A stretch of 64,000 nucleotides of DNA, from NCBI GenBank assembly GCA_050952645.1, contig JBMNLI010000009.1, positions 1,800-65,799 of the forward strand, given 5' to 3'. The DNA is from Bdellovibrionota bacterium. GTDB lineage: Bacteria > Bdellovibrionota_C > UBA2361 > CAKMMH01. The translations under genes and the position numbers were made by a program. Shown here one piece after another: positions 29,551-56,554 of the stretch; the stretch's first letter is position 1, and each line of letters starts with the position of its first letter. A model generated the notes under the pieces. The model saw only the letters and a program-made list of their open reading frames with translations, did no database searches and had not been told where the DNA came from.

Positions 29551-29555
29551 AAATT

Positions 29556-41146: not shown

Positions 41147-41163
41147 AAAGTTTAAAAAAATAT

Positions 41164-41973
41164 GGTTCTCACGTTTTGGGTGGGTTAGAAAAGTTGTTTT
41201 TGGGGGTTAGCTTAAAAGAAAATTGGCTTTTATAGAAAACTATCTATAGTTTAAAGAAAAATTACAACTATATTTAAAGTAATTTATTTTATGCAAATTT
41301 CTTTAAAGTCAATTTTCTTTTGGGCTTCGTCGAGGTGAGTGATACTAATTTTAAGGTATAAAATCACCTTTAAAAGTGAAGAACAAAAGTTGTTTTTGGG
41401 GGTTAGCTTAAAAGAAAATTGGCTTTTATAGAAAACTATCTATAGTTTAAAGAAAAATTACAACTATATTTAAAGTAATTTATTTTATGCAAATTTCTTT
41501 AAAGTCAATTTTCTTTTGGGCTTCGTCGTGGTGAGTGATACTAATTTTAAGGTATAAAATCACCTTTAAAAGTGAAGAACAAAAGTTGTTTTTGGGGGTT
41601 AGCTTAAAAGAAAATTGGCTTTTATAGAAAACTATCTATAGTTTAAAGAAAAATTACAACTATACTTAAAGTAATTTATTTTATGCAAATTTCTTTAAAG
41701 TCAATTTTCTTTTGGGCTTCGTCGAGGTGAGTGATACTAATTTTAAGGTATAAAATCACCTTTAAAAGTGAAGAACAAAAGTTGTTTTGGGGGGTTAGCT
41801 TAAAAGAAAATTGGCTTTTATAGAAAACTATCTATAGTTTAAAGAAAAATTACAACTATATTTAAAGTAATTTATTTTATGCAAATTTCTTTAAAGTCAA
41901 TTTTCTTTTGGGCTTCGTCGAGGTGAGTGATACTAATTTTAAGGTCTTTAACCCACTTAAAACATGAAGAGCC
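41164..41973 (+). mobile_element. MITE-like element (810 bp) whose 196-bp internal unit is tandemly amplified about 4 times
   Basis: Left end GGTTCTCACGTTTTGGGTGGG, right end CCACTTAAAACATGAAGAGCC. Flanks AAAAATAT / AAAAACAT (7/8). Unit copies start at 41193, 41389, 41585 and 41781. Confidence 0.75.
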
Positions 41974-42010
41974 AAAAACATTTTAAGAGTTTAAATTAAA
42001 GGAAAAAATT

Positions 42011-43231
42011 ATGCCTGTTTTTTTGTGGGAAGGAAGAGATGCAAAAGGAAATATAGTTTCTGGCGAACTTGAAGCTTTAGATAAAATTGCCGTTTTTAAT
42101 TTATTAAAAGCTAGAAATATAAACGTCAATACTTCTAAAATACAAGAAAAAGGAAAAGGAATGAATAAGGAAATAAAAATTCCTCTTCTAGCTCCTAAAA
42201 TCAAAGAAAAAGATATTTCAGTTTTTACTAGGCAACTTTCTACGATGATCGATGCTGGGCTTCCATTAGTTCAAGGGCTAGGTATCTTAGCAAAACAATC
42301 CTCAAATCCTGCATTTACGAGTATGATTGAAACCGTAAAAAATGAGGTCGAGTCTGGAAAAACATTTACAGAAAGTTTAAAGCTATTTCCTAAGCATTTC
42401 GATGCGCTTTATGTAAATATGATAGACGCTGGTGAGAACGGCGGTATTCTAGATGTAATCTTAGATCGTCTTTCAGTTCATATGGAAAAATCTATAAAAT
42501 TAAAACGTGAGGTAAAGACGGCTTTAATCTACCCTACCGTTGTAATAAGCGTAGCAGTGATAGTTACTGCCGTTTTACTAATTTTTGTTATTCCAACATT
42601 TGCTGAACTTTTCGAGGATTTTGGTGCAGAACTTCCAGCCCCTACGCAAATAGTAATAAATATATCAAATTTTTTCGTTGCCAACTTAGCGTTTATCGTA
42701 TTTGGATTTCTAGGCTTGATTATAGGATTTTTTAAATTTTCAAAAACGGAACGTGGGCAAAATGTTTTACACCCTATTTATTTAAAACTTCCTGTGTTTG
42801 GAGATTTAATAAAAAAAGTAGCGGTAGCTAGATTTACAAGAACGCTCGGAACGATGCTTTCATCTGGCGTGCCTATTTTAACCGCATTAAATATTTGTTC
42901 AAGAACTGCTGGAAATAAAGTAGTAGAGCATGAAGTGCAAAAAGCTCGTTTCGCAATCTCGGAAGGAAAGCAGATGGAGGCTACACTTAGCGAGTCGAGC
43001 GTTTTTCCACCGATGGTAACTCAAATGATAGGTGTAGGTGAAACTAGTGGAGCGCTAGATCAAATGCTAAATAAAGTTGCCGATTTTTATGAAGAAGAAG
43101 TTGAAAATGCCGTAGGAGCTTTAAAGCAACTAATCGAACCTATAATGATTTTATTTCTAGGAGTCGTTATAGGGGGACTAGTTATTGCTATGTATCTACC
43201 TATATTTAAACTTGGGGCTATTACAGGGTAA
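42011..43231 (+). CDS. GspF/PilC-family inner-membrane platform protein
   Basis: 406 aa, two T2SSF domains and three TM segments. Downstream of the GspE/PilB-like gene. Confidence 0.85.
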   Translation: MPVFLWEGRDAKGNIVSGELEALDKIAVFNLLKARNINVNTSKIQEKGKGMNKEIKIPLLAPKIKEKDISVFTRQLSTMIDAGLPLVQGLGILAKQSSNPAFTSMIETVKNEVESGKTFTESLKLFPKHFDALYVNMIDAGENGGILDVILDRLSVHMEKSIKLKREVKTALIYPTVVISVAVIVTAVLLIFVIPTFAELFEDFGAELPAPTQIVINISNFFVANLAFIVFGFLGLIIGFFKFSKTERGQNVLHPIYLKLPVFGDLIKKVAVARFTRTLGTMLSSGVPILTALNICSRTAGNKVVEHEVQKARFAISEGKQMEATLSESSVFPPMVTQMIGVGETSGALDQMLNKVADFYEEEVENAVGALKQLIEPIMILFLGVVIGGLVIAMYLPIFKLGAITG

Positions 43232-43291: not shown

Positions 43292-45214
43292 TTAACTTTC
43301 CAAAATCTCTTTTATATCTAAAGGTATATCTAAAGGTTTTGTAATTATTTTTTTTACTCCATATTTTTTATATTCATCGATATCTATATTAGTTTTTCCA
43401 GTAAGGATAAATACATCTACACTTATCTTCTTTTCTTTTAAAAACTCTAGTAAAGTATCTACCCTTTCTTTTCCTATATAATAATCGCTTATAATTAAAT
43501 CCACACTATTTGATAACAAAAACTTTTTAGCATCTTTTATATTAAAAAAACTTTGAACTAAAAAATCGTAAGCCTCTAATAACCTTTTAGTGCTTTCTAA
43601 CAACTCTTTATCATCATCTATAAGCACTATCTTTTTTGCTTTTTTATCTTCTATAGCAAGTTTATTTATACCACTTACCTTTTCTTTAATAAAAGGCATT
43701 TTAAGTGTAAACTCACTTCCTTTATTTTCAGTAGAAACCACGGATACCGTTATATCGTTTAAATCTGAAAAAGCTTTAACCATAAAAAGCCCGAGACCGT
43801 AGCCATCTAAATGTTCAGCGTTCTCTCCTCTTTTAAACGAAGAGAATATTTCTTGCAAATTTTCTTTCTTTATTCCTATTCCAGTATCTGAAATTTTTAT
43901 AACTATATTATTTTTTGCGTTCGTGCACTCTATATCGATATGTCCTTTTTCAGTATACTTAATAGCATTAGAGATTATATTATTTATAATCTTTTTAAAC
44001 TGCCTTTTATCTGCGTATATAATTTTATTTTTAAGGTTATCTTTAAAATTTATTTTCAAATTCTTTTCACTAGCTCTTAAATAAAAATTATTAACGGCAT
44101 ACTTAAGTTCATCACTAACATTTACGTTTTCTTTAAAAACTTTTAAATCCGAATTTTTATACTTTGAAAAATCTAGCAAGTCTTCTAATAAAAGCGAAAT
44201 AGAATCGCAATTATTTAGCGCTATCTCTATAAATTCTTTTTTATTTTCTTCATCAGAATTTATCTCTAATAATTTTAACACTGCTACTAGGTTTGCAAGA
44301 GGTGAGCGTAAATCGTGAGATACAAACTCTAAGTATTCACTCTTTTTTATCGCTTCTTTAGTCTTTTTTTCAATTTCATTCTTAGCACTTTTTAATTTTA
44401 GATACGTTTCATACTGGTTTCCTATTTCATAAGATAAATTATTAAATAAATTTTCCTCTTTTAAAAAACTTATATCATCTCCAGAAATACCAAACCATAA
44501 ATATATTATAGTATTACTATCATTTGAAAATTTTATTTTTTTTATAATCGCTCTTTGGTATCCAAAAAGTGATAAATCTTCTAAAACGTTAGAAACGTTA
44601 TAATAACTTACAACGCCTTCTTTTATCTCCTTTTCGTTTGCTATACAATTTAAAAACATTTGTTTTAAAAACATTGAAACGTGTTTATTAGATGAAAGCG
44701 AACTTAGAGAAAAACAATTACCACTTTCTTTATCGTAATAAAATAAAACTATCGCATTTTTTTGGTAAAACCCAGAAAGTATATTTAGTATATTTTGAAA
44801 AAAACTTTGTTCATCTATTTCAGGATTGATATCCATTTTTTTAAGAAAATTTATAGGATTGTTTAAATCTTCATTCTTATAATCTTCACTATCTTTTTTT
44901 AACAAAAAAACTTTTCTCTCTAAAAACAAAAGATACTCATTTAATGTTTTTCCAATTGGAGTGCTATATTTAACGTCTTCTTTTTTTCTTGTAAAAGTAT
45001 TTATAGTTTTTATAAAGTTAGCAAATTGTTTTTTAAACTTACCTATATCATCAAAGCAAAGTAAAATTACTACTAAAAGCGTATATAATACAAAGGCTAT
45101 TAAAAATAAGATTTCACTCTTACTAGCTAAATGTATATTTACTAAATATAAAAGATACGTAATTAAAATGCCTATTAGCACGGTAAATAATTTTATTTTT
45201 GTTATAAATTTCAT
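43292..45214 (-). CDS. hybrid sensor histidine kinase / response regulator
   Basis: 640 aa. Two N-terminal TM helices, HisKA H-box FVSHDLRSPL, HATPase_c (DTGIGIKKENL...GYGLGLFMVKAF), C-terminal receiver (KIVLIDDD...DLIISDYYIG...ILTGK). Confidence 0.8.
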   Translation of the reverse strand: MKFITKIKLFTVLIGILITYLLYLVNIHLASKSEILFLIAFVLYTLLVVILLCFDDIGKFKKQFANFIKTINTFTRKKEDVKYSTPIGKTLNEYLLFLERKVFLLKKDSEDYKNEDLNNPINFLKKMDINPEIDEQSFFQNILNILSGFYQKNAIVLFYYDKESGNCFSLSSLSSNKHVSMFLKQMFLNCIANEKEIKEGVVSYYNVSNVLEDLSLFGYQRAIIKKIKFSNDSNTIIYLWFGISGDDISFLKEENLFNNLSYEIGNQYETYLKLKSAKNEIEKKTKEAIKKSEYLEFVSHDLRSPLANLVAVLKLLEINSDEENKKEFIEIALNNCDSISLLLEDLLDFSKYKNSDLKVFKENVNVSDELKYAVNNFYLRASEKNLKINFKDNLKNKIIYADKRQFKKIINNIISNAIKYTEKGHIDIECTNAKNNIVIKISDTGIGIKKENLQEIFSSFKRGENAEHLDGYGLGLFMVKAFSDLNDITVSVVSTENKGSEFTLKMPFIKEKVSGINKLAIEDKKAKKIVLIDDDKELLESTKRLLEAYDFLVQSFFNIKDAKKFLLSNSVDLIISDYYIGKERVDTLLEFLKEKKISVDVFILTGKTNIDIDEYKKYGVKKIITKPLDIPLDIKEILES

Positions 45215-45226
45215 ATAAAATATTTC

Positions 45227-46330
45227 CTAACTTAAAAAGTTTTTTACTATATCTTGTAAATATTCTAAAGAAAAATCGTTTTCTATATAATAGTCAACCC
45301 CGTAAAGATATGCTTCTATTTCATTTATATTTTCATTTGCAATTAAAATACTACGCATTTTTTTATTATTTGATTTAAAAACTTTCTCTTCGTTTTTTAA
45401 TGTTTCTTTATCTAAAGATATGATTAGCACTTTAAATTTATAATTTTTATAATCATTAAATAAATCGAAAAAACTTTCATAGTTTCTCACGAATATATTA
45501 CTATTCTTAAACGCATTAAAAACTTTTTCTCTTAACTTTTCATCTTTTGAAACTAACGCAATATTATTAGTGCTAGCTAAAACTTTTTTAGGAATTGCCC
45601 AGCTCAGCATTATAACGTTTCCTAAATTATTTAATTTTATCTTCCGAACTTTAAAAAAGTTATCTTTTTTTATTTTATAAAAAAAATTACTCTCTAAATT
45701 TAGCCAAAACTCGCTTAAATCTTGATTGATAATATTTCCTTTCTTCCACTCTTTAGCTTTATCTTGGTAACTATAAAAAACCTTATTTTGAGCATACTCG
45801 AAAACTAGCCTAGAAATATGTTTTTCTTCACACTCTATAATTAAAGCTTTTAATGTCTTTAAAAAAACATCACTTGCGCCATCTTTTTTATTTTCACCGC
45901 TTTCAAGTAGTGATAAAAATTCTGTTATATCATTTCCTAGCGTTAAATAAATTTTAACATTTTCATCTATATTAAATTTTTCAAATATCAAAAAAGGGTT
46001 TGATGATATTATTGCTATCAACTTAAACTCATTTATTATTGGACAAAAACCGTATTTTTTTAACACATCAAAGTTTTTAATATTTTTTTTTATCTCTTTA
46101 ATATTTAAATCGTTAAGTCCTATTTTATAATCGATATTAGTAAGAGTTTTAATATTTTCAAAAAACTCTATCTTATTTAGATTAAAAGAGTTTATAAAAA
46201 AATCTAAATAATATCTTTTATCTATCTTATAATTAAATAGACTATCTTTATAATACACTCGGTATAAATTTTTTATTAAACCTTTTAAAGATGTAATTCC
46301 ACATTTTTTTAGTTTTACAAAGTTTTTCAT
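45227..46330 (-). CDS. hypothetical cytoplasmic protein inside the tad cluster, possibly with a degenerate receiver-like C-terminal domain
   Basis: 367 aa, no signal peptide or TM helix. C-terminal KVLIISLD...ILIANENINEIEAYLYGVDYYI loosely resembles a REC fold without the canonical acidic pocket. Weak call. Confidence 0.4.
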   Translation of the reverse strand: MKNFVKLKKCGITSLKGLIKNLYRVYYKDSLFNYKIDKRYYLDFFINSFNLNKIEFFENIKTLTNIDYKIGLNDLNIKEIKKNIKNFDVLKKYGFCPIINEFKLIAIISSNPFLIFEKFNIDENVKIYLTLGNDITEFLSLLESGENKKDGASDVFLKTLKALIIECEEKHISRLVFEYAQNKVFYSYQDKAKEWKKGNIINQDLSEFWLNLESNFFYKIKKDNFFKVRKIKLNNLGNVIMLSWAIPKKVLASTNNIALVSKDEKLREKVFNAFKNSNIFVRNYESFFDLFNDYKNYKFKVLIISLDKETLKNEEKVFKSNNKKMRSILIANENINEIEAYLYGVDYYIENDFSLEYLQDIVKNFLS

Positions 46331-46333
46331 TTT

Positions 46334-46840
46334 CTAAAATTCATAAGTTACTAATATTTGCTTAGTTTTAATAATATCATTTGGCATTAGATTTAAAAAA
46401 TCACCGCCCATTCTTGCGCATTCTTTGAAATTCATTTCACTTTTTAAAGTTATAAAATACTGCGGAATGTTTCTTTTAACTAAAGTGTCTTCATAATTTT
46501 TAGTGCTTTTAATTAACTTAAAATCGTACTTAATTTCGCAGTGATTATTTTCTCTAAGCTTCCTTAGCTTATCATTTATTAAATTTTTAATATTATCTTT
46601 ACTTTCTTTTATTACTGTAAAATTCTCATCAAGTTTTAAAACGAACTCTTTTCTATTACCGAACGCATTATCTACCTTTTCTTCTAATAAATAGCTAAGC
46701 CTATAATACTCCATAATACCTAACACGTTATAAATAAAAGGAAGTAAAACTGCCATTGCAACGCAAAACTCTAGCAAAGATAAGCCTTTGTTAAATCTAC
46801 AAAAAGATAAGAGAAAACGTTTATTTTTCTTTATCGCCAT
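46334..46840 (-). CDS. TadE/TadF-like minor pseudopilin
   Basis: 168 aa. N-terminal GLSLLEFCVAMAVLLPFIYNVLGIMEY matches the Flp/TadE-type prepilin G/xxxxE(F/Y) motif plus one TM helix. Overlaps the upstream gene by 10 nt. Confidence 0.55.
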   Translation of the reverse strand: MAIKKNKRFLLSFCRFNKGLSLLEFCVAMAVLLPFIYNVLGIMEYYRLSYLLEEKVDNAFGNRKEFVLKLDENFTVIKESKDNIKNLINDKLRKLRENNHCEIKYDFKLIKSTKNYEDTLVKRNIPQYFITLKSEMNFKECARMGGDFLNLMPNDIIKTKQILVTYEF

Positions 46841-48222
46841 ATAGAACCTTCCTTTTTATTTAACCAAATAAAATCTCTAATATCATCGGATAATTTTTCA
46901 CTAGAGTTTTGATGTAATAAAAAAAGCTTTATCGTTTTATCTTTTTTATTATATCTTTTAATAAAGGTTTTATGTTTAGAAATAGAGGCACTACTTAAGC
47001 CTGGCACTTTATTAGTTTGAAATAAAACGTAAATAATATTTAATTTAAAGTTTACTCCTTTTAAGATCTCATCTAAACCATCTAGCGAGGTTTCTATGGC
47101 GGTTAAATCAAAAGTATGAAGATTAGAAGAAAAAATAAATAAGTTTTTATTTAAATCTTCTGAAAGAGTATTCCTATCTGCTCTCCCCTTAGCACTAATT
47201 AAAGTTCTTCCTGCACTTTCTAATACATTTATAAAATTAGCTTTATATCCTTTATGAACTGGTGTTGACCAAATGGAGGTTAGCACGCTTGCTTTACCAT
47301 CTTCAACACTATTATTTTCTAAATTATTTATAATTTTATAATCATCTCTTACTAAAGGAAACCGATATCTTATCTCTTGCAACTCATTTAGAGCAGCATT
47401 AAAACAGTCTAAACTTTTAAAGCCATCGTCTGACGTATAATATAAAAACTTTGCCTCATTATTTAAAAAAGAAGCTGCACTGATATTTTTTATATACTCT
47501 ATATCTCTCTTATAACTTCCTCCTGGAAAAACTCCTACACCTACCGAGTTTAAGTGAGTGCTACCGTAAAAATTATAAGTATCTATTAGTATATTTTTTA
47601 ATGGGGAAAATACTTCATTAAAACATTGCTGTGTATAATATCTAGGGCTACTAGTAAACTTATCATCGTTTTGTTCAAAATACATAGCGCTTGGTGCCTC
47701 TCCTACGCTTCCCCATAATTTTTTTTTATCATTTGGTGAGTTATATAAGTTTCTATCTAGTAAAAGTAGCACATCACTTACACTAGGGGTTGCATAAGAA
47801 AAAGCATTTAGTGGGTACGATATAATAGTTTTTTTATTACTACCTTTTTCATTACTACCTATAAAAAACTTAGTAAGGTTTGAAAACAACAGCTCGTAGT
47901 TTCTTTTATAAGATATTCTTATTCCAGTATCATCGGCGATAATTTCTAAACTATCATCTTCTAATCCTTGATTTAAAAGATAGCTTCTCGTTATATTTAA
48001 TGCATAATCTTTATATGGATAAAATTTAACGCCTTGCAAACTAGCTTCATCTAAAATTTTTTGCACGCTTCTTTTTGCAGTATACAAAGAAGCAACATCG
48101 AATGTAATCATAAGTAAGAATGATAAGGTAGGAATAACAAATAAAACAAAGAAAATTAGAGTGCTTCCATTTTGATTATAAGTTTGATTATATCTTTGAT
48201 TATTAAATAATTTATTTATCAT
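46831..48222 (-). CDS. TadG-like pilus assembly protein (TadE-like N-terminal TM plus large periplasmic domain)
   Basis: 463 aa. N-terminal GSTLIFFVLFVIPTLSFLLMITFDVASLY resembles the TadE/TadG signature. Confidence 0.5.
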   Translation of the reverse strand: MINKLFNNQRYNQTYNQNGSTLIFFVLFVIPTLSFLLMITFDVASLYTAKRSVQKILDEASLQGVKFYPYKDYALNITRSYLLNQGLEDDSLEIIADDTGIRISYKRNYELLFSNLTKFFIGSNEKGSNKKTIISYPLNAFSYATPSVSDVLLLLDRNLYNSPNDKKKLWGSVGEAPSAMYFEQNDDKFTSSPRYYTQQCFNEVFSPLKNILIDTYNFYGSTHLNSVGVGVFPGGSYKRDIEYIKNISAASFLNNEAKFLYYTSDDGFKSLDCFNAALNELQEIRYRFPLVRDDYKIINNLENNSVEDGKASVLTSIWSTPVHKGYKANFINVLESAGRTLISAKGRADRNTLSEDLNKNLFIFSSNLHTFDLTAIETSLDGLDEILKGVNFKLNIIYVLFQTNKVPGLSSASISKHKTFIKRYNKKDKTIKLFLLHQNSSEKLSDDIRDFIWLNKKEGSIWR

Positions 48223-48235
48223 ATTTTTACATTTC

Positions 48236-49033
48236 CTATTTTGGCATACTTTCCATAGTCATTATTTGAGTTAAAGGAACCGATAAGAAAAATATAATAA
48301 GTCCAATAAATGCGCAAAGAAGCGGTAAGGTTGCTTTTACAGGCAAAACGGCGATTTCTTTTTCAACTAATTGTTGGTAGTACTCCTGCGTAGAATCGCT
48401 TAGCTCTTCCATAGGAGCTACTATTTCTCCCCCCTCTTTTTGAGCTATTCCAAGATGCAAAAAACCGTGTCTTATAGAAGTTAAATTTATAGAGTTAGCG
48501 ACTAACGCTAAACTATCTTCAAAGCTAATTCCAGACCTATTTTTTTTTAATACCATATCTAAAAGTTTAGTTACGGGGTCTAGGGAGCCATTTTTTTTAC
48601 TTAACTCTACTACTATATTTACTGCTGAATACACATCGTTTCCGCCTTGCACAGCCATTACTAAACGCTCCATTACTATAGGTAAATAAAAATCGTATTT
48701 TTTATATACGTTTTTTACTTCTCTATTAGCTAGTATTCTAATAAAAATATAAGAAAGCGAAATTGAAAAAACTAAAGCTATAATAAAATTAGTTAATGTT
48801 AAAGAAAAAAAGATCATTAAGATAGCAAAAATTATCAATGATAAAATTAAAAAAGTTATTTTTTGTTCTAATGTAAGTTTTATATTTTTTTCTTTTTCTT
48901 CTTTATCTTCTTGTTCTTTAGAAATTTCATCACTACTAATCGAATAGTATTTTTCAAGCTGGTCATAAGAAAAGGTATTATATAAATAACATACAATAAG
49001 AAATATTAGTAATGCTATCAATGTGTAAATCAT
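48236..49033 (-). CDS. tadC: Tad pilus inner-membrane platform protein TadC
   Basis: 265 aa, T2SSF-like single domain, three TM segments. 4-nt overlap (ATGA) with tadB. Confidence 0.65.
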   Translation of the reverse strand: MIYTLIALLIFLIVCYLYNTFSYDQLEKYYSISSDEISKEQEDKEEKEKNIKLTLEQKITFLILSLIIFAILMIFFSLTLTNFIIALVFSISLSYIFIRILANREVKNVYKKYDFYLPIVMERLVMAVQGGNDVYSAVNIVVELSKKNGSLDPVTKLLDMVLKKNRSGISFEDSLALVANSINLTSIRHGFLHLGIAQKEGGEIVAPMEELSDSTQEYYQQLVEKEIAVLPVKATLPLLCAFIGLIIFFLSVPLTQIMTMESMPK

Positions 49034-49863
49034 ATTTTACCCCTTGCAAGATAAAGCATCCACGCTATACCAATAAATACTAAGACTGTGCCTAAAGCCA
49101 TAAGCCTTATTCCTAAAGGCGTAGAAATAGCATTAAAAAAATGCTCTCTATTCATTATCATTTGAATAAACGCTATAAAAACGCCACTACCTAAAATACC
49201 GAATGCTGAAACTTTTTGCATAGCGATAGCAGATTGAGTTTTTCTTCTAAATGATTGCCTTTGCCGAGTAACTTTAGTTAAACGTCTTAGAGGTTTATAT
49301 AGCCCACTTCCCTCTTTTCTAGAAAGGATAAATGCTACTTTAAATAAATCTATATCGGGGTGTTTTATATCTTTTGCAAAATTATTTATCGCTTCCTCTT
49401 CAGACATTCCCTCTTGAATATCTAGTAAAACATCTAGTAATTTTTCTTTTAATATACTCGTTTCTAAAAAAAGATCTTTTACTATTAAAAGCGCCTGCAA
49501 TGGGTCTTTTCCGCTTTTAACGCAAGATGCTAAGGAAATTAAAAATGCTGGGTAATCTTCTTCAAAATTTTTAGCACGTAAGATAACTTTTTTATTTAAC
49601 AAAAAATATTCTATTATTAAATATGCAATTACTAGAAATAATGAAATGTAAAATTTAAAAAAGAAGATAGAAATAAAAAAAATACATACAGATAAAATAA
49701 TACATCTTAAAATTAATTTTTGTTTTTCCTTTTCGTTAATTCCAGCGTAATAAAAAATATCATCTAGACTATTTTTAGTATCTCTAGAAGATTTTCTATT
49801 GATACCAAAAAATCCAGTGCTTAATAATTTTAATCTTTTTATATCACTTTTAAATCTCTTCAT
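49030..49863 (-). CDS. tadB: Tad pilus inner-membrane platform protein TadB
   Basis: 277 aa, T2SSF-like single domain. Lies between tadA and tadC. Confidence 0.65.
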   Translation of the reverse strand: MKRFKSDIKRLKLLSTGFFGINRKSSRDTKNSLDDIFYYAGINEKEKQKLILRCIILSVCIFFISIFFFKFYISLFLVIAYLIIEYFLLNKKVILRAKNFEEDYPAFLISLASCVKSGKDPLQALLIVKDLFLETSILKEKLLDVLLDIQEGMSEEEAINNFAKDIKHPDIDLFKVAFILSRKEGSGLYKPLRRLTKVTRQRQSFRRKTQSAIAMQKVSAFGILGSGVFIAFIQMIMNREHFFNAISTPLGIRLMALGTVLVFIGIAWMLYLARGKI

Positions 49864-49886
49864 ATATTTTTTTTATATTTTTTTAT

Positions 49887-51212
49887 TTAATCGATAACTA
49901 ACTCATCTTTTAAATTTCTTAAATTTACATCTATTTTTTTCTTTTTAAAATCTTCTTCAAAACTACTAGTCTTACTTACTACTTTCCAAGTCGCTTTTTG
50001 GTTTTGATAAGAGTATTTAAATATCTCTCGTTGACGCACGACATTATCTGCCATCGATGTTATCTCCCTAACGTCCATAATTCTTCTAAATCCAGAGTTA
50101 TGACAAATATCGAGATGCACTATTATTTGAACTGCGCTAGCGATTTGTTCTTTTAAAATATTATTAGCTACCATTTTTTGAGCTCTTCCTAAAAAAAGCT
50201 CTAGTCTCGATATAGCATCAGCCGAGGATTTAGCATGAATAGTCGACATTCCAGAGTGCCCAGAGGCGCAAACATCTATAAAAGCCTCAGCAGCTCTAGC
50301 ATCTCTAATCTCTCCAAAAATTATTCTATTCATAGCCATACGCATTCCAGCCCTAATACATTCTGCAGGAGAGATAAGCCCAGCATTATCCGTGTTTGCC
50401 TCTCTTATTCTTAAATATCTTACGTGCGGATGCTCTAAGATAATTTCGGGAGTATCTTCTATAACTAAAATAGATTCTTCTTTAAATATACTAGATGCGA
50501 GTGCTCGAACGAGAGTAGTTTTTCCAGTGCCAACCTCGCCTGCTATAAAAATAGTAAGCCCAGATTTAACGGCAGCATTTAAATAATCGAAAACTTCTTT
50601 TGGGGCTAGGGAGTATTTTATTAAATCTTCTACCTTAACTTTTGAAAATCTGTTTATTCTTAAAGTCAGGTAGGGACCTTTTTCGCATATCGATTGATGC
50701 ACGGCATGCACACGGACAAATCCTCCTATAGTGCCGTCTGTAATCGGGTGGGCGGTAGAGTAAGTAGTGCCGGCTTTTTGAAGCAACCTTTCTACGTAAT
50801 TTATATAACTTTCTTTATTTGGAAAGGTGATATCTGTTTTATAGTTCTTTCTTTTTTGTTGAACGGAGACATCATCAAAATCTGTAATAATAATATCGCT
50901 AATTTCAGGCGAGTCTACAAGAGATTGTAAAACCCCAAAAGGTTTTTGCTCTTTTTCTAATTGTTCTAAAATCTCATCTCTTTCAAACGATGAAAGTTCA
51001 AATCCGTGGCGAACTGAAATAATATCTATTAAATCGCAGAAATCTTTTTGAGTATACTCGCCCTCATCTTTTGAAAAATCTTTTCCAAGCTCTATTCTAA
51101 TTTCTCTTATTATATACGATAGTGCAGGAGGAAGCCCAGTTTTTACCACGGTAGGTTCTTTTATAATCTCTTCACCAAATTCTTGTTTTATACTTCTCCA
51201 ATCTCTTTGCAA
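49887..51212 (-). CDS. tadA: Tad/Flp pilus assembly ATPase TadA/CpaF
   Basis: 441 aa. Walker A IFIAGEVGTGKTTLVRAL, VirB11/CpaF-type Asp and His boxes (ILVIEDTPEI; IFGEIRDA...HSGMSTIHA). Confidence 0.9.
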   Translation of the reverse strand: MQRDWRSIKQEFGEEIIKEPTVVKTGLPPALSYIIREIRIELGKDFSKDEGEYTQKDFCDLIDIISVRHGFELSSFERDEILEQLEKEQKPFGVLQSLVDSPEISDIIITDFDDVSVQQKRKNYKTDITFPNKESYINYVERLLQKAGTTYSTAHPITDGTIGGFVRVHAVHQSICEKGPYLTLRINRFSKVKVEDLIKYSLAPKEVFDYLNAAVKSGLTIFIAGEVGTGKTTLVRALASSIFKEESILVIEDTPEIILEHPHVRYLRIREANTDNAGLISPAECIRAGMRMAMNRIIFGEIRDARAAEAFIDVCASGHSGMSTIHAKSSADAISRLELFLGRAQKMVANNILKEQIASAVQIIVHLDICHNSGFRRIMDVREITSMADNVVRQREIFKYSYQNQKATWKVVSKTSSFEEDFKKKKIDVNLRNLKDELVID

Positions 51213-51242
51213 AATTTTCTCCTAAACTTATCTTATATTTTT

Positions 51243-51347
51243 GGCTCTTCACGTTTTAAGGTAGGTTTTAGACCTTAAAATTAGTATCACTCACCTCGAC
51301 GAAGCCAAAAAAACAATTTTTCTAACCCACCTAAAACGTGAAGAACC
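51243..51347 (-). mobile_element. short (105 bp) deletion derivative of the MITE family, inverted orientation, perfect 8-bp TSD ATATTTTT
   Basis: GGCTCTTCACGTTTTAAGGTAGG ... CCACCTAAAACGTGAAGAACC. TSD at 51235-51242 and 51348-51355. Sits in the cpaB-tadA intergenic region. Confidence 0.8.
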
Positions 51348-51452
51348 ATATTTTTTAATTTTACTTTTAAAATTCTAAGTTTCTCGTTTCACGTTTTTTT
51401 ATTTTACAATTTTATTTTATATTTTTATTTATCATTAATTATTTATCATTAA

Positions 51453-52343
51453 TTATTTATCATCAATTATAAAGCCTTTAGGAATAGAGTTAGACTTTAC
51501 CCATTTATCTCCTGAAAGAGCAAATATCTTATCTGCATTTCCCCCTTCTCCTTTAACTGAAACCACAGCTTTTATAGTATCTTTTTTACTCCCTCCGATA
51601 GGTCTTCCCTTTAAATTATCTGGACTAAAGATATTTTCTTCCCAGTTTGCCTCATCGTTTGCACTTCTTAACGCAAAAGCTATGCGTCCTAATGGAATCG
51701 CAGTGTTGATCGCTAAGCATTGTTTTTGAGTTACTAAAAGAGTAACGGTGCTTGGGATATTTGGTGATTTTTCACTAGCAACTGGAGCCGTGGAGCGTTC
51801 CTGAGAAAGGATTTTTACTTTCTCTGCTATAACAGATGTTTTATGTTTTTGAACGAGCAAAACGTCTACTAAGCTTCCCGAACCTGCCCAACCCTCCACA
51901 GAGGATGTAGCATCTACTCTTATAGTCATAGCACGCATACCTTTAGGAATTTTATCTACTACTGGGTTTTGAGGGTAGGCTGTAAAACTAAAATTAACAT
52001 CGAACACTGGCAAGTTTGCAGGAAGTTTAGTTAGTGCTATAGCTTCTTGCATTCCACTTAAATCTAAAAGAGCACCTTGTGGCACTTGGTGTTTAGGAAA
52101 TGATACTTGTTTAAATTTTATATCTCTTACTTTAGTTCCCATAGGAACTAGCGTAGCTGGAACGGGAACTTTTACGGTATTAAACTCTGCTACTACCGCT
52201 ACATTTTCTTTGGCTTTCTTATTAACGCTATTAGAAATAATAATGGAAGATATTATTAAAGATAAACAAATTATTAGCACTATTAATAATTGGTTTTTTC
52301 TTTTATTTCTTTGATTGATATAAGAATTTTTTCTTTGAACCAT
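51453..52343 (-). CDS. cpaB: Flp pilus assembly protein CpaB/RcpC
   Basis: 296 aa. N-terminal TM anchor, SAF-like and RcpC beta-clip-like regions. Confidence 0.65.
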   Translation of the reverse strand: MVQRKNSYINQRNKRKNQLLIVLIICLSLIISSIIISNSVNKKAKENVAVVAEFNTVKVPVPATLVPMGTKVRDIKFKQVSFPKHQVPQGALLDLSGMQEAIALTKLPANLPVFDVNFSFTAYPQNPVVDKIPKGMRAMTIRVDATSSVEGWAGSGSLVDVLLVQKHKTSVIAEKVKILSQERSTAPVASEKSPNIPSTVTLLVTQKQCLAINTAIPLGRIAFALRSANDEANWEENIFSPDNLKGRPIGGSKKDTIKAVVSVKGEGGNADKIFALSGDKWVKSNSIPKGFIIDDK

Positions 52344-52573
52344 AAAATTACTGCCTCTTTATAGAATTCAATTACCATCTTTTTTTAAAAAAAAAATTTT
52401 ATATAGAAAGCCAAAGCTATTTTTAAAAAATTACTTTTAAAATAATACTTATAAATAATACTTATAAACAATATAAGTAAGATTTAAGAGAAGATGTTTA
52501 AAAAGATTATAAACATCTTCTCTTTACTACTTACATTATTACTTACATTTATTTATTAAAACACACGCTACTT

Positions 52574-52798
52574 CTAATTACCGCCACCAGAACCGCCGCC
52601 AGTAGTGCCTGCATCTAAAGTAATCCCTGTAGGTAAATCACCAGAACGGTCTACAGCCCAATCCCCAATATTAGTAGCTGCTGTTTGAAGTTTTCCGCCC
52701 ATTGCTTGCAAAACTGCAAATACGATAACTGCAACTACAGCAGCACCTGCACAATATTCAAGTAGTGTTAATCCTTTTTGGTTTCGTTTTCTTAACAT
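52574..52798 (-). CDS. flp: Flp-family type IVb pilin with Gly/Thr-rich C-terminal tail
   Basis: 74 aa. Prepilin motif ...QKG/LTLLEYCAGAAVVAVIVFAVL (G/xxxxEY), hydrophobic helix, tail DAGTTGGGSGGGN. RBS AAAGGAGAATAT before the ATG. Confidence 0.7.
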   Translation of the reverse strand: MLRKRNQKGLTLLEYCAGAAVVAVIVFAVLQAMGGKLQTAATNIGDWAVDRSGDLPTGITLDAGTTGGGSGGGN

Positions 52799-52847
52799 AT
52801 ATTCTCCTTTTATAAGAAAAAATAAAAAATTAAATTTAAAACTAAAT

Positions 52848-54281
52848 TTAAACTGCTTTAGTAAAAAACTTTTTTTCTTCCTTTTCTTCTCTTTTTTCTC
52901 TTTTTTCCTCGTCTTCTTTTATATCATATTTTTGAGCTTTATAGTCTATAGTTTTTTTAGGCTCTGCTATTTTTTCTAAATTTTTATCTTCTAACATCTT
53001 GCTACGTTTATCTTCTTTACTATTTTTATAAGTATCTATAAAGCTACTAAATATTGTAGCAATCTTTTTAATATATCCAAGTATTATTTCTTTTATTCCA
53101 ATTTTTGAAATCTCATATTTACGATTATCTATTTTTTCACTTAATGCAAAGAGTATATCTTTAAGCCTTTTATCCGCTTGTGAATAGAATGTAGCGCCAG
53201 ACCCTGGCCATCTTCCGTGGGATGGAACATAGTTTATTGCGTAAGGAAAAAAAGCATCTTCTAATAATAAAGAAGAAGTTAAAACCTCATTTTTTAATAT
53301 ATCAGATGAAATAAGCGTTCTTTCATGTCTATTTTCTACGATATATAACTTTGCATCTGATGATAAATAATTTTTTGCATTTTTTATAAGTTCTAAGTTT
53401 GCAAAAATAGATGCAGGATCATTATTTATAATAACTAAAAGCACATCACAAACTCTATATAGACTAGTTTTTAACACTCCTTTAAAACAAGCTAAATCGA
53501 TTATTATATAATCAAAATAAGTATCTAAATTTTCTAATACCGATAAGAAATTTTTATAGTATGAAGATTTAATAGAGTATATATTTTCAACCTCAACGGT
53601 TGGGGTCATACAATATAAATTTTCCTCATCATCCCATACATTAAAATAACACTCCTTTAGTGAGTCTTGAGTTATAGGTTTTAAACCGTCTAGAATCAAA
53701 CCTAAACTTTCATTTATAAAAGGACGCACTTGTAAGAATCTGCTTAAATCTTGGCTTTCTATATCGCAATCTACTAGTAAAACTTTCTTTCCTTTATCTA
53801 GATAAATCTCTCCTAATGCAGAAACGATGGAAGTTACGCCCGAACCTCCCTTTCCACTATCTACTACTATTATTTTTGAATTTTGTTTTTTATTTGTTTT
53901 CCTTACTAATATAATTAGTTTTCTAAAAAAATCGTTTGAGGTAATGTTATCTAGAAAAATATCAGTAACTCCAAGCCTAGCTAGTTCTTCGATAATAAAA
54001 AGTTTATTTAAACTCTCATCTATCCAAGCGATTATAATAATATTAGGAAATAGTGTTTTGATATCACTAATAATACCTCTATCCTCAGAGAGGATCTCGC
54101 TTCCTAAGAGAATTAGTTTTGGGGATTTTTGAAAGCTAAGCTCTTCAATAGAAATAGATTTAACACTTATCCTTGGGATAATATCGGCACTTTGTGAGCC
54201 TGCATATATAAAATCACACAGTCTATTTCTTATTTTATTTCTAGACTCAGCACTCTTATCTAAGATTAATAATTCTAACAT
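52848..54281 (-). CDS. tadZ: TadZ/CpaE-like pilus localisation ATPase (N-terminal receiver-like domain plus MinD/ParA-like domain with atypical Walker A)
   Basis: 477 aa. IIVVDSGKGGSGVTSIVSALG is a deviant Walker A lacking the second Lys, as is usual for TadZ. Acidic/basic C-terminal tail. Confidence 0.65.
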   Translation of the reverse strand: MLELLILDKSAESRNKIRNRLCDFIYAGSQSADIIPRISVKSISIEELSFQKSPKLILLGSEILSEDRGIISDIKTLFPNIIIIAWIDESLNKLFIIEELARLGVTDIFLDNITSNDFFRKLIILVRKTNKKQNSKIIVVDSGKGGSGVTSIVSALGEIYLDKGKKVLLVDCDIESQDLSRFLQVRPFINESLGLILDGLKPITQDSLKECYFNVWDDEENLYCMTPTVEVENIYSIKSSYYKNFLSVLENLDTYFDYIIIDLACFKGVLKTSLYRVCDVLLVIINNDPASIFANLELIKNAKNYLSSDAKLYIVENRHERTLISSDILKNEVLTSSLLLEDAFFPYAINYVPSHGRWPGSGATFYSQADKRLKDILFALSEKIDNRKYEISKIGIKEIILGYIKKIATIFSSFIDTYKNSKEDKRSKMLEDKNLEKIAEPKKTIDYKAQKYDIKEDEEKREKREEKEEKKFFTKAV

Positions 54282-54556: not shown

Positions 54557-56554
54557 ATGAAAAAGAGACAATTTTTATTTATTTTTATAATATTTATAGC
54601 CTTTTTAGTTAGGTATCCTTTCGTTGGTGCAGGGCTACCCTACTTTCAAAATGAAGATGAAATGCATCACTTTAATAGAACTGTAAGAATGGTGCAATCA
54701 GGTTCCTTTAACCCGAATTATTTTTTAAAGCCAAGCCTCCATTTTTATATGCGTATTCCCGTAGTGGCTCTATCTTTTATTTGGAACGTTAGAAAGGGAC
54801 ACGTTAAAACGCTATCAGATATAAAAATTACTAATCCATACGGCATCGCATCGCACTCTAGCACCGCTTCTCATATAGGTATAGTAAAGTGGAATAGAAT
54901 GTTTAGCTTAACGCTTAGCATTTTAACTTTAGTTTTAATATTTTTTATAATAAAAGAGCTTACTAATAATTATTATACATCCGTTTTAGGTTCTTTACTC
55001 TTTGCTTTATCACCTCCACAAATAGAATTATCTACGCAAATAAATGTCGATGTCCCCGTGATGTTTCTATGTTGTTTTGCAGTTTTTATCGCTATAAAAA
55101 CTTATAACAAATTTTCAGTTTCAAATTTAATCTTCCTTTCTATAATTTCAGGTTTTGCGATTTCGACTAAATATAATGCAATGCCAATCTATTTTTTACC
55201 TTTTTTTACTCTTATCGCTAGCAATAAAATAAATTTAAAAAATTGCTGTATCGCTTTTATAACTCCTATAGTAGCATTTTTTATTGCATCTCCTTATGCA
55301 TTTATAAATTATAACTTATTTCTAGACCATTTAGCTTTTGAGGTAAAACATTATGGAGTAGATGGACACGTTGGGCACTTAGCAGACCCAGGGCTTCAGC
55401 AACTTTTGTTTTATTCAAAATGGTTTTGTGTAAATGCTATAGGGTGGATACCTTTTATATGTTTCTTATATGGAGTTATTGTAGTTTGCGCTAAAAGTTT
55501 TTCTAAATCTATAAATAAATTTTCTATACAAAAACATTTGTTAGTTTTATCATTTCCACTTCTTTTCTTAACTCTTATGATATTTCAAAGAGCAAACTTT
55601 ACTAGAAATATGTTAATGGCACTACCTTTTGTGTGTATTTTTGCGAGCATTGGTTTTTCAAAAATTTTAAAAATTTTTTTACAAAAAAACTTAGAGAAAA
55701 AAAATAAGATAATTACTATTTGTATTCTAGTTTTTTTCGTGCAAGTAGCCGTTCAAACATTTTTTGTAGAAAAAAAAGTTTTAAATATAAAAGACACTAG
55801 AACCGATGTTAGTGCTTGGGTTAGAGATAATCATAGCGGTGATTATAGTATATTTGTTAGCGGCAAATTAGACTTAGAGCATAATATTTTTGCTTATCCT
55901 AATATTATTAGAATAGATGAAACGACTTCACCTCTAAAGTTATATAATAAACATGGTAAATATTTAATTTTACCTAAGTATATAAAAAATCCTTACGAAA
56001 ATTTTTATAAGGAGTATAAGGTATTTAATGGGCAAGAAAAGGATCCTAAAAATAGATTATATGTAAATCCAAATATAGTTATATATGAAAAAGTTCCACT
56101 AGAAAATCTATCTATCGATGATATAAAGACGTCTGCGTTAGATGTATCAGATATGTTTAATATTTACTCAAATAAGTATTCAGTTTCTATAAAGTGTGAT
56201 AATAATAAAAAACTAAATGAAAAAGATGTGGACAAAAAAATAGATAAAGATTGTTGGCTCACATCTAATATAAATAAGGTAAGTCTTAAAAAATTTAATA
56301 TTTCTAATAAAACATTACATTTTTCTTATATGAATCCTTGGCAAAATCAAAATGTAAAAATACTAGTAGGAGATAAGGTTATAGATGCTACTTGTAAAGA
56401 TATTAAGCCTTGGGAGGTTTGTAAAAAGGAAATTAGTATTCCTAAAATAGATGGTAATGCTGAGAATATTTATATATTAGTGCAAAAACTTATATCCCCA
56501 TATTACGCTAAATATAGCCAAGATGAGCGTTTCTTAGGAATTTCAGTTAAATAA
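54557..56554 (+). CDS. GT-C superfamily glycosyltransferase (ArnT/PMT-like, GT39/GT83-type)
   Basis: 665 aa. About 11-12 N-terminal TM helices with the DE motif in the first extracytoplasmic loop (YFQNEDEMHH), then a ~250-aa soluble C-terminal domain. Confidence 0.6.
   Translation: MKKRQFLFIFIIFIAFLVRYPFVGAGLPYFQNEDEMHHFNRTVRMVQSGSFNPNYFLKPSLHFYMRIPVVALSFIWNVRKGHVKTLSDIKITNPYGIASHSSTASHIGIVKWNRMFSLTLSILTLVLIFFIIKELTNNYYTSVLGSLLFALSPPQIELSTQINVDVPVMFLCCFAVFIAIKTYNKFSVSNLIFLSIISGFAISTKYNAMPIYFLPFFTLIASNKINLKNCCIAFITPIVAFFIASPYAFINYNLFLDHLAFEVKHYGVDGHVGHLADPGLQQLLFYSKWFCVNAIGWIPFICFLYGVIVVCAKSFSKSINKFSIQKHLLVLSFPLLFLTLMIFQRANFTRNMLMALPFVCIFASIGFSKILKIFLQKNLEKKNKIITICILVFFVQVAVQTFFVEKKVLNIKDTRTDVSAWVRDNHSGDYSIFVSGKLDLEHNIFAYPNIIRIDETTSPLKLYNKHGKYLILPKYIKNPYENFYKEYKVFNGQEKDPKNRLYVNPNIVIYEKVPLENLSIDDIKTSALDVSDMFNIYSNKYSVSIKCDNNKKLNEKDVDKKIDKDCWLTSNINKVSLKKFNISNKTLHFSYMNPWQNQNVKILVGDKVIDATCKDIKPWEVCKKEISIPKIDGNAENIYILVQKLISPYYAKYSQDERFLGISVK

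What the first reader, a model, noticed from the sequence alone, without database searches (positions are those of the whole stretch)
43292..54281. Non-canonical Tad (Flp pilus) locus: no secretin and no prepilin peptidase, tadZ placed before flp, a MITE exactly where rcpA would be expected
Gene order on the minus strand is tadZ - flp - cpaB - [MITE] - tadA - tadB - tadC - tadG-like - tadE-like - 367-aa unknown - hybrid HK. Canonical diderm tad loci carry a secretin (rcpA/cpaC) directly after rcpC/cpaB and a TadV/CpaA prepilin peptidase next to flp. Both are absent here, although the genome otherwise looks diderm (lpxB, VKOR-DsbA, lipoproteins). The 105-bp MITE derivative occupies the cpaB-tadA junction, so a deletion linked to element activity is conceivable. 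Alternatively the secretin and peptidase are elsewhere, or this is a secretin-less architecture as in monoderms. The Flp prepilin (G/LTLLEY) still needs a peptidase.
Basis: partly seen in the sequence, partly recalled or inferred. Interest (0 to 1): 0.6.

Follow-up and report, generated by a model that had tools for sequence, protein, structure and literature searches.

The report
Secretin-less Tad pilus cassette, incidental MITE
This is an intact Tad (Flp) pilus gene cassette from an uncultured Bdellovibrionota bacterium that has no outer-membrane secretin or prepilin-peptidase gene beside it; the same layout occurs in about 75 related genomes, and the small mobile element inside it is a recent, harmless insertion that deleted nothing.

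Summary
On the minus strand lie tadZ, flp, cpaB, a 105-bp MITE, tadA, tadB, tadC, a tadG-like gene, a tadE/F-like gene, a 367-aa gene and a hybrid histidine kinase. No secretin or A24 peptidase is encoded anywhere in the 64-kb window.

The MITE-linked deletion idea is refuted.
- The MITE (51243-51347) has terminal inverted repeats and an intact 8-bp target-site duplication (AAAAATAT).
- A roughly 99%-identical strain carries the precise empty site.
- In 77 related Bdellovibrionota loci the cpaB stop abuts the tadA start, leaving no room for a gene.

The secretin-less, peptidase-less cassette with its own two-component pair is therefore ancestral and conserved. cpaB and tadA are under strong purifying selection (dN/dS 0.01-0.04). 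The 367-aa "unknown" is a cytoplasmic regulator with a GspE/PilB-N-like region and a degenerate receiver domain. It is not an outer-membrane part.

Most likely the cassette builds the inner-membrane and periplasmic half of a Tad pilus. It would borrow a PilD-type peptidase, as shown for Bdellovibrio bacteriovorus, and a secretin encoded elsewhere. Whether any secretin serves it could not be tested here. I rate it a new variant of a known kind, of moderate interest.

The parts
52848..54281 (-). tadZ/cpaE-like ParA/MinD-type ATPase (477 aa), first gene of the cassette
   Evidence: Pfam AAA_31 44 bits, CbiA and BcsQ. Present in the same position in 65 related loci.
52574..52798 (-). flp major prepilin (74 aa), leader MLRKRNQKG|LTLLEY, with a Gly/Ser/Thr-rich C-terminal tail
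   Evidence: Flp_Fap 32.0 bits against a cutoff of 32.2. The G|xxLLEY motif is conserved in 66 related loci. NCBI names it 'Flp family type IVb pilin', MGI6680285.1.
52486..52524 (-). strong stem-loop just after the flp stop codon (attenuator or terminator-like)
   Evidence: RNA fold of 52470-52580: -29.2 kcal/mol, z = -6.25. A role in setting the pilin-to-machinery expression ratio is inferred.
51453..52343 (-). cpaB/rcpC periplasmic alignment protein (296 aa, N-terminal TM helix)
   Evidence: Pfam RcpC 53.8 bits. NCBIfam TIGR03177 106 bits, above the cutoff of 71. dN/dS 0.01 against strain L092.
51243..51347 (.). 105-bp MITE (internally deleted copy). Terminal inverted repeats GGTTCTTCACGTTTTAGG and CTTAAAACGTGAAGAGCC. 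8-bp target-site duplication AAAAATAT at 51235-51242 and 51348-51355.
   Evidence: Repeat family. Alignment of the copies. Precise empty site in conspecific contig L092. Folds as a long hairpin: -50.6 kcal/mol for 201 nt, z = -5.
49887..51212 (-). tadA/cpaF ATPase (441 aa, TTG start with an AGGAG ribosome-binding site)
   Evidence: T2SSE 108 bits. PDB CpaF E 7e-39. The TTG start is shared with the 86%-identical relative. dN/dS 0.04.
49030..49863 (-). tadB inner-membrane platform protein (277 aa)
   Evidence: T2SSF 36 bits, single domain.
48236..49033 (-). tadC inner-membrane platform protein (265 aa)
   Evidence: T2SSF 29.6 bits, single domain.
46831..48222 (-). tadG-like pilin-like protein (463 aa). 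The globular part is uncharacterised. It evolves quickly between strains.
   Evidence: PF13400 Tad 23.3 bits, above the cutoff of 22.3. 18 aa differences against strain L092, clustered, dN/dS 0.39. AF2 model pLDDT 46.8, not usable.
46334..46840 (-). tadE/F-like minor prepilin (168 aa), leader ...FNKG|LSLLEF
   Evidence: Motif read from the sequence; no Pfam hit. Proteins at the same position in relatives carry the same leader plus hydrophobic segment (clusters 9 and 11).
45227..46330 (-). 367-aa cytoplasmic regulator: GspE/PilB-N-terminal-like region plus a degenerate C-terminal receiver domain
   Evidence: AF2 pLDDT 71. Foldseek PDB hits: GspE E 1e-4, PilB, receiver domains including the TadZ CheY-like domain 4lda. 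Proteins at the same position in relatives have a bona fide Response_reg domain, 69 bits. NCBI MGI6680278.1.
43292..45214 (-). hybrid sensor histidine kinase with receiver domain (640 aa), last gene of the cassette
   Evidence: HisKA, HATPase_c and Response_reg. Conserved at the 3' end of the cassette in about 62 related loci.
54557..56554 (+). PMT_2-family membrane glycosyltransferase, divergent from tadZ (neighbour; a link to the cassette is unproven)
   Evidence: PMT_2 and PMT. Adjacent in relatives L002, L004 and L007.
39452..43231 (+). type IVa pilus pilB (39452-41146) and pilC (42011-43231), convergent with the cassette, separated by an 810-bp composite MITE array (41164-41973). No pilD is linked.
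   Evidence: T2SSE with MshEN, and two T2SSF domains. Array. Empty site, 47-bp spacer, in strain L092.

Best explanation
The locus is a functional, clade-specific Tad (type IVc) pilus cassette of uncultured Bdellovibrionota. It encodes only the cytoplasmic, inner-membrane and periplasmic parts, the pilins, and a dedicated signalling pair.
- Motor and platform: TadA, TadB/TadC, positioning ATPase TadZ, alignment protein CpaB.
- Pilins: Flp, a TadE/F-like minor pilin, a TadG-like protein.
- Signalling: a hybrid histidine kinase and a receiver-type regulator with a GspE-N-like region.

Shown: the parts list, its conservation, and purifying selection on the core genes.

Inferred: the three prepilin-like leaders (G|LTLLEY and G|LSLLEF, plus a looser G|STLIFF in the TadG-like protein) are cleaved in trans by a PilD-type peptidase belonging to the type IVa pilus system, whose pilB/pilC sit next door. 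The fibre then leaves the cell through a secretin encoded elsewhere, either a dedicated RcpA or the type IVa PilQ.

The 105-bp MITE between cpaB and tadA is an unrelated, recent, strain-polymorphic insertion. It adds a hairpin to the operon transcript and removed nothing.
For: Identity of the parts.

Conservation: 77 related loci, all from Bdellovibrionota-type MAGs with TadA 50-86% identical, share the order tadZ-flp-cpaB-tadA-tadB-tadC-...-HK. The cpaB-to-tadA gaps run from -242 to +179 bp, with a median of about -4.

No secretin within +/-10 kb of any of them (1.28 Mb; HMM controls E 4e-24 to 3e-69). No A24 peptidase among the polytopic membrane ORFs there or in the precomputed Pfam tables.

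Functionality: all ORFs are intact. Between two strains dN/dS is 0.01 for CpaB, 0.04 for TadA and 0.03 for PilB.

MITE as a simple insertion: inverted repeats plus an intact 8-bp duplication. Exact empty sites at both the cpaB-tadA and pilB-pilC spacers in strain L092. Relatives have spacers of 0-22 bp.

Peptidase in trans: B. bacteriovorus has no TadV in its tad loci, and its type IVa PilD cleaves Flp1; its tad genes are scattered, including an rcpA-tadA module elsewhere (bioRxiv 10.64898/2026.07.08.737194). Prepilin peptidases are sometimes shared between systems (PMC6668835).

Diderm status and a type IVa pilus in this genome: lpxB and pilB/pilC.
Against: No secretin or peptidase of this organism was seen, because only 64 kb of the genome and +/-10 kb of the relatives could be read. 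The trans-supply step is therefore inference.

None of the secretin-associated accessory genes (rcpB, tadD, cpaD or cpaI-like) was recognised in the cassette. The Tad secretin is regarded as the founding acquisition of Tad systems and is usually encoded with them (PMC6668835). I found no documented case of secretin sharing between Tad and type IVa pili in the papers read.
Confidence: 0.6

Rival explanations
1. The machine is truly secretin-independent in a diderm. The cassette is complete as it stands, and the Flp filament either stays in the periplasm (an endopilus or piston, as in type II secretion) or crosses the outer membrane through an unrecognised conduit.
For: The cassette is conserved as a unit in about 75 species-level genomes with no secretin, pilotin or RcpB/TadD/CpaD-like gene within 10 kb. 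It carries its own regulators, so it looks self-contained. Type IV filaments can polymerise without a secretin and are then trapped in the periplasm (PMC10191384).
Against: All components match a surface pilus: a Flp pilin, and a TadG-like protein of the kind that forms the pilus tip in other systems. The fast-evolving patches on the TadG-like protein (dN/dS 0.39 against 0.01-0.04 for the core genes) suit an exposed protein. Scattered tad genes and a trans-acting peptidase are already documented in this phylum. No candidate outer-membrane protein is found in the cassette; the 367-aa protein is cytoplasmic.
Confidence: 0.2
2. MITE activity deleted rcpA (and tadV) from a formerly canonical locus.
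For: Only the position: the MITE sits in the cpaB-tadA spacer, where canonical loci such as Ralstonia and Salipiger carry the secretin gene directly after cpaB.
Against: Both copies of the 8-bp target-site duplication are intact. A conspecific strain has the exact empty site. Relatives without the MITE, at 86%, 73% and 50-61% TadA identity, have cpaB abutting tadA. The same MITE family also sits in other intergenic spacers, including pilB-pilC.
Confidence: 0.01
3. The locus is a decaying remnant that has lost essential parts and no longer works.
For: Two components regarded as core are missing in cis. A MITE hairpin now sits inside the operon. The receiver domain of the 367-aa protein is degenerate, with no Pfam hit.
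Against: All ten ORFs are full-length. Synteny holds across 50-86% TadA identity. CpaB and TadA are under strong purifying selection between strains. The processing motif is conserved in 66 Flp sequences.
Confidence: 0.04

Closest known systems
Canonical diderm Tad/Flp (type IVc) pilus loci: Aggregatibacter tad, Caulobacter cpa, and the Ralstonia and Salipiger plasmid loci read here
   Same: TadA/CpaF ATPase, split TadB/TadC platform, TadZ/CpaE, CpaB/RcpC, Flp pilin with G|xxxxEY, and TadE/F and TadG-like pilins.
   Different: No secretin after cpaB, no prepilin peptidase next to flp, and no RcpB/TadD/CpaD. tadZ is the first gene. A hybrid histidine kinase and a receiver protein lie inside the cassette. 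TadA is only about 29% identical to the best plasmid-borne CpaF, from an alphaproteobacterium.
Bdellovibrio bacteriovorus Tad machinery (Tesseur et al., bioRxiv 10.64898/2026.07.08.737194)
   Same: Same phylum. No TadV in the tad loci, and PilD of the type IVa pilus processes Flp1. tad genes are scattered and lie next to signalling genes, including histidine kinases.
   Different: B. bacteriovorus keeps rcpA in its main tad locus, has a TadZ-TadA fusion, and encodes tadC separately. Here tadZ and tadA are separate genes, tadB and tadC are adjacent, and no rcpA is linked.
Monoderm Tad loci (Actinobacteria, Firmicutes)
   Same: A secretin-less gene set. According to Denise et al. 2019, adaptation of Tad to monoderms involved loss of the secretin (PMC6668835).
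   Different: This organism is a diderm with lipid A synthesis (lpxB), so the reason for secretin loss in monoderms does not apply.
Myxococcus xanthus Kil system (Tad-like apparatus for killing prey)
   Same: A Tad-derived system from the predatory 'delta-proteobacteria' group, with genes split over more than one locus (PMC8460266).
   Different: Per my recollection Kil includes a secretin.
Neisseria Correia-type MITEs (from my own knowledge, not tested)
   Same: An element of about 100-150 bp with terminal inverted repeats, inserted in intergenic spacers inside operons, that folds as a long hairpin in the transcript.
   Different: No sequence relationship was tested. This family has an 8-bp target-site duplication and forms a tandem array with a 196-bp period at one site.

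Membership tests
Tad / Flp (type IVc) pilus system | TadA/CpaF-family ATPase | tested here: met
   T2SSE 108 bits. Best solved relative is CpaF, E 7e-39.
Tad / Flp (type IVc) pilus system | Platform split into two single-domain proteins, TadB and TadC | tested here: met
   Two adjacent genes, each with one T2SSF domain, 36 and 29.6 bits against a cutoff of 25.2.
Tad / Flp (type IVc) pilus system | Short Flp-type prepilin with a G|xxxxEY processing motif | tested here: met
   KG|LTLLEY read from the sequence. Flp_Fap scores 32.0 bits, just under the 32.2 cutoff. The motif is conserved in 66 relatives.
Tad / Flp (type IVc) pilus system | TadZ/CpaE ParA/MinD-like ATPase | tested here: met
   AAA_31 44 bits, CbiA and MinD-type matches. 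The N-terminal receiver-like region was not tested.
Tad / Flp (type IVc) pilus system | CpaB/RcpC alignment protein | tested here: met
   TIGR03177 106 bits, above the cutoff of 71. RcpC 53.8 bits.
Tad / Flp (type IVc) pilus system | RcpA/CpaC secretin (in diderms) | tested here: not met
   Absent from the window and from +/-10 kb of 77 related loci (with controls). Presence elsewhere in the genome cannot be tested with these tools.
Tad / Flp (type IVc) pilus system | TadV/CpaA prepilin peptidase | tested here: not met
   No Peptidase_A24 hit in any window ORF of at least 100 aa, nor in the polytopic membrane ORFs near relatives. The rest of the genome was not testable. It is also absent from the tad loci of B. 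bacteriovorus.
Tad / Flp (type IVc) pilus system | Minor pilins TadE/TadF and TadG | tested here: inconclusive
   The TadG-like protein passes PF13400 (23.3 against 22.3). The 168-aa protein is assigned only by its leader motif. The AF2 model of the TadG-like protein is of low confidence.
MITE (miniature inverted-repeat transposable element) | Short, non-coding, with terminal inverted repeats | tested here: met
   105 bp, with matching ends GGTTCTTCACGTTTTAGG and CTTAAAACGTGAAGAGCC.
MITE (miniature inverted-repeat transposable element) | Target-site duplication and an empty site in a related genome | tested here: met
   AAAAATAT on both flanks. Strain L092 has a single copy of it and no element. 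The pilB-pilC site behaves the same way.
MITE (miniature inverted-repeat transposable element) | Multiple dispersed copies | tested here: met
   Five sites in 64 kb. Short-read contigs of the same strain break inside the copies.
MITE (miniature inverted-repeat transposable element) | A parent transposase-encoding element with the same ends | not tested
   None was seen in the window.

The most novel reading that the evidence does not exclude
A large clade of diderm Bdellovibrionota runs a Tad-type filament machine with no dedicated secretin. Either it shares the type IVa PilQ pore, or it works as a periplasmic filament under the control of its own two-component pair. That would contradict the view that acquiring a secretin was the founding and obligatory step for Tad systems in diderms.
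Probability: 0.2. Interest if true: 0.75.

Novelty: new variant of a known kind. Interest (0 to 1): 0.35.

Why it matters
Tad pili are central to adhesion and, in predatory bacteria, to attachment to and invasion of prey. Denise et al. 2019 propose that recruiting a secretin founded the Tad lineage and that the secretin was lost only when Tad moved into monoderms.

A cassette that lacks the secretin, the peptidase and every secretin accessory gene, yet is conserved under purifying selection across many diderm Bdellovibrionota species, offers a natural test. It can show whether Tad inner-membrane modules operate with borrowed outer-membrane and processing parts, or without an outer-membrane pore at all. 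It also provides a defined regulatory module (a hybrid kinase and a GspE-N-like receiver protein) wired to a Tad motor.

The practical lesson for the scan is that a mobile element at the expected position of a missing gene is not evidence of a deletion. The target-site duplication and the empty site settled the question.

Tried and rejected
1. My own A24-peptidase HMM, built from three reference sequences, failed its leave-one-out control. I discarded its negative result. I replaced it with Pfam scans of all window ORFs and of polytopic membrane ORFs near relatives, after the membrane-segment screen passed a control on the three reference peptidases.
2. The AF2 model of the TadG-like protein had pLDDT 46.8. 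It was too poor for a fold search, so its globular domain remains unassigned.
3. The promoter scan found 48 sites against 59 expected from shuffles, which is uninformative in 29% GC DNA. I make no promoter claim for the MITE.
4. Rfam found only the 16S rRNA gene, and ARAGORN found no tRNA.
5. I considered the two small ORFs between the PMT gene and topA (56690-57118, 57264-57716) as possible pilotins or RcpB. Neither has a signal peptide or lipobox.
6. A rhomboid-like membrane protein lies upstream of the cassette in about 11 relatives. I considered it as an alternative pilin protease. It is absent from the window and from most loci, and the Pfam match is weak (23.3 bits), so I rejected it.
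7. The orphan TadA paralogues in relatives (L081-L085) are not part of tad loci and have no secretin nearby.
8. A whole-genome search for a secretin or peptidase was not possible.
9. The NCBI 73-kb contig of this MAG is not in the contig index, which holds only Logan short-read contigs.

Full report
**What is in the sequence**

The window is about 29% GC and carries a bacterial 16S rRNA gene, lpxB, murJ, fliD and VKOR-DsbA. It therefore comes from a flagellated diderm that makes lipid A. Exact-match look-ups tie it to an NCBI MAG labelled 'Bdellovibrionota bacterium'. CpaB is MGI6680284.1, Flp is MGI6680285.1 and the 367-aa protein is MGI6680278.1, on a 73-kb contig. The accession numbers leave exactly five genes between the 367-aa protein and CpaB. 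NCBI's own annotation therefore also sees nothing between cpaB and tadA.

- TadZ-like ParA/MinD ATPase (52848-54281).
- Flp (52574-52798). It has the motif KG|LTLLEY, and Flp_Fap scores 32.0 bits against a cutoff of 32.2.
- CpaB/RcpC (51453-52343). TIGR03177 scores 106, above the cutoff of 71.
- TadA (49887-51212). It matches T2SSE, and the closest solved structure is Caulobacter CpaF, E 7e-39.
- TadB and TadC (49030-49863 and 48236-49033), each with one T2SSF domain.
- A TadG-like protein (46831-48222, PF13400).
- A 168-aa protein with a prepilin leader, KG|LSLLEF (46334-46840).
- A 367-aa protein with no family hit (45227-46330).
- A hybrid histidine kinase (43292-45214).

The operon is bounded inside the window. 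A PMT_2 glycosyltransferase gene diverges upstream, and pilC-pilB converge downstream.

**Absence of a secretin and a peptidase**

Every ORF of at least 100 aa in the window was scanned against Pfam. There was no Secretin or Peptidase_A24 hit.

I built a secretin HMM from three annotated Tad secretins and the type II secretin EtpD, taken from plasmids. In leave-one-out controls it recovered each held-out secretin at E 4e-24 to 3e-69. It found nothing at E ≤ 10 among 7,974 stop-to-stop ORFs from the window plus 86 fetched loci.

My peptidase HMM failed its control, so I discarded it.

**The MITE**

The cpaB-tadA spacer is 240 bp. It is flanked on both sides by AAAAATAT.

The family has four other sites in the window, and all five sites are intergenic: 29546-29714, 29797-29871, 34664-34893 and an 810-bp composite with a 196-bp tandem period between pilB and pilC (41164-41973).

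A Logan contig from another sample (L092, ERR10905742) is about 99% identical over the cassette. It has the exact empty site: one AAAAATAT, no element, and a 127-bp spacer. The pilB-pilC array is also absent there, leaving a 47-bp spacer. Contigs from SRR31061295 are 100% identical to the window and break inside the MITE copies.

The insertion is therefore recent, polymorphic and simple. An adjacent deletion would have removed one copy of the target-site duplication and would not leave a clean empty site. In the sense transcript the element forms a long hairpin (-50.6 kcal/mol over 201 nt, z = -5) that is followed by A-rich rather than U-rich sequence. I infer that it is tolerated as a stem-loop within the operon.

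**Synteny**

The closest TadA relatives are 86%, 73% and 70% identical. After them come more than 100 proteins at 50-61% from MAGs labelled Bdellovibrionota, Oligoflexia, Bdellovibrionales or 'Deltaproteobacteria'. Contigs for three of them show the same ten-gene order, with cpaB 0-22 bp from tadA.

A scan of one genome per species returned 80 loci, all from such MAGs and including one complete genome, CP129486.1. ORF calling and BLAST against the window proteins gave tadZ-flp-cpaB-tadA-tadB-tadC, then usually the tadG-like and tadE/F-like genes, a receiver protein and the hybrid kinase, in 77 loci, a few of them duplicate copies of the same contig. The cpaB-to-tadA gap ran from -242 to +179 bp, with a median of about -4.

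Clustering of all flanking ORFs found no recurrent secretin-sized or outer-membrane family. The polytopic membrane ORFs in the flanks are a weak rhomboid-like match, TMEM43, TerC, an ABC membrane domain, a desaturase, a Na/H exchanger and a few with no family hit. None is an A24 peptidase.

The architecture is therefore ancestral to a broad uncultured clade. It is not a lesion in this genome.

**The unknown proteins**

The 367-aa protein has only three homologue clusters beyond its own exact sequence. An AF2 model (pLDDT 71) matches the N-terminal regions of GspE and PilB (E 1e-4, probability 0.98) and receiver domains, including the CheY-like domain of TadZ. TM-scores are low because the match is domain by domain. 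In more distant relatives the protein at this position has a clear Response_reg domain of 69 bits. It is a cytoplasmic regulator, presumably the partner of the adjacent hybrid kinase, and not a hidden outer-membrane component.

The TadG-like protein could not be modelled (pLDDT 46.8).

**Is the cassette alive?**

Between the two strains, dN/dS is 0.01 for CpaB, 0.04 for TadA and 0.15 for TadB. The TadG-like protein has 18 clustered amino-acid changes and a dN/dS of 0.39. The Flp processing motif G|(Y/F/L)(T/S)LLEY is conserved in 66 loci. A strong hairpin follows flp, as is common after pilin genes; that comparison rests on my own knowledge.

**How it most likely works**

Shown: the cassette encodes the motor, the platform, the positioning ATPase, the periplasmic alignment protein, the pilins and a two-component pair.

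Inferred: the prepilins are cleaved by a PilD-type peptidase encoded elsewhere. This is now documented in B. bacteriovorus. Its tad loci lack TadV, its PilD cleaves Flp1, and its tad genes are scattered, including an rcpA-tadA module at a second locus. Peptidase sharing between systems is also noted by Denise et al..

The intact pilB/pilC next to the cassette (PilB dN/dS 0.03) imply a working type IVa pilus. In a diderm that needs both PilD and a PilQ secretin, so at least one peptidase and one secretin are probably available in the cell. Which secretin serves this cassette, if any, is unknown.

Filament assembly itself does not need a secretin; without one, type IV pili are trapped in the periplasm (PMC10191384). 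A secretin-independent or periplasmic mode therefore cannot be excluded. I give it about 0.2.

**Comparison and novelty**

The system works like a Tad pilus and meets five of the eight defining features tested. It fails the two that concern cis-encoded outer-membrane and processing parts, and the minor-pilin test was inconclusive.
- Canonical loci: it differs in gene order, in lacking rcpA, tadV, rcpB and tadD, and in its built-in kinase and receiver pair. TadA is only about 29% identical to the best plasmid-borne CpaF match.
- B. bacteriovorus: that organism keeps rcpA in its main locus and has a TadZ-TadA fusion.
- Monoderm loci: these also lack a secretin, but this organism is a diderm.

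Two full-text searches found no description of this cassette, though the library is limited.

**Verdict**

The locus is a conserved new variant of a known system. Its one interesting open question, the source or absence of the secretin, could be settled by a whole-genome HMM search that these tools could not run.

Noticed in passing
window 46831-48222 compared with L092 4443-5834: Between two roughly 99%-identical strains, the TadG-like protein carries 18 amino-acid differences clustered at residues 85-128 and 369-376 (dN/dS 0.39). CpaB has 21 nucleotide differences but only 1 amino-acid change. dS varies from 0 to 0.107 between neighbouring genes, which suggests a recombination mosaic.
   Followed up: partly
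window 41164-41973: An 810-bp composite of the same MITE family, with an internal 196-bp unit repeated about four times, fills the pilB-pilC spacer. It is flanked by AAAAATAT and AAAAACAT and is absent from strain L092, which has a 47-bp spacer.
   Followed up: yes
window 54557-56554 (+): A PMT_2-family membrane glycosyltransferase diverges from tadZ and stays next to the cassette in the closest relatives (L002, L004, L007). Flp ends in a Gly/Ser/Thr-rich tail (TTGGGSGGGN). Pilin glycosylation is a possible link, but it is untested.
   Followed up: no
window 52486-52524 (-): A 15-bp perfect stem-loop lies just after the flp stop codon, nested in a longer stem (-29.2 kcal/mol, z = -6.25). It is a likely attenuator between the pilin gene and the machinery genes.
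   Followed up: partly
window 51440-51480: A 14-bp unit, TGATAAATAATTAA, is repeated about three times across the cpaB stop codon. The repeat region differs in strain L092.
   Followed up: no
window 35300-36100: A dense block of direct and inverted repeats lies in a gene-free stretch upstream of a GTPase gene (178-nt, 72-nt and 67-nt families built on TTGTCGC...GCGACA motifs). Its nature is unknown.
   Followed up: no
L081 9461-11059; L082 8984-10738; L083 995-2602; L084 4187-5977: Relatives encode an orphan TadA/CpaF paralogue (532-596 aa) with an N-terminal hydrophobic extension. It lies among housekeeping genes, with no other tad gene or secretin nearby.
   Followed up: partly
L021 4829-5545 (-) and 44 other loci: A conserved protein of about 238 aa with no Pfam match and no signal peptide diverges immediately upstream of tadZ in 45 related loci. 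It is absent from the window, where the PMT gene occupies that position.
   Followed up: partly
window 19407-19778 (-): A 123-aa ORF matches only the C-terminal half of HAD hydrolase profiles (HAD_2 positions 80-178 of 178). It may be a truncated gene or have a mis-called start.
   Followed up: no
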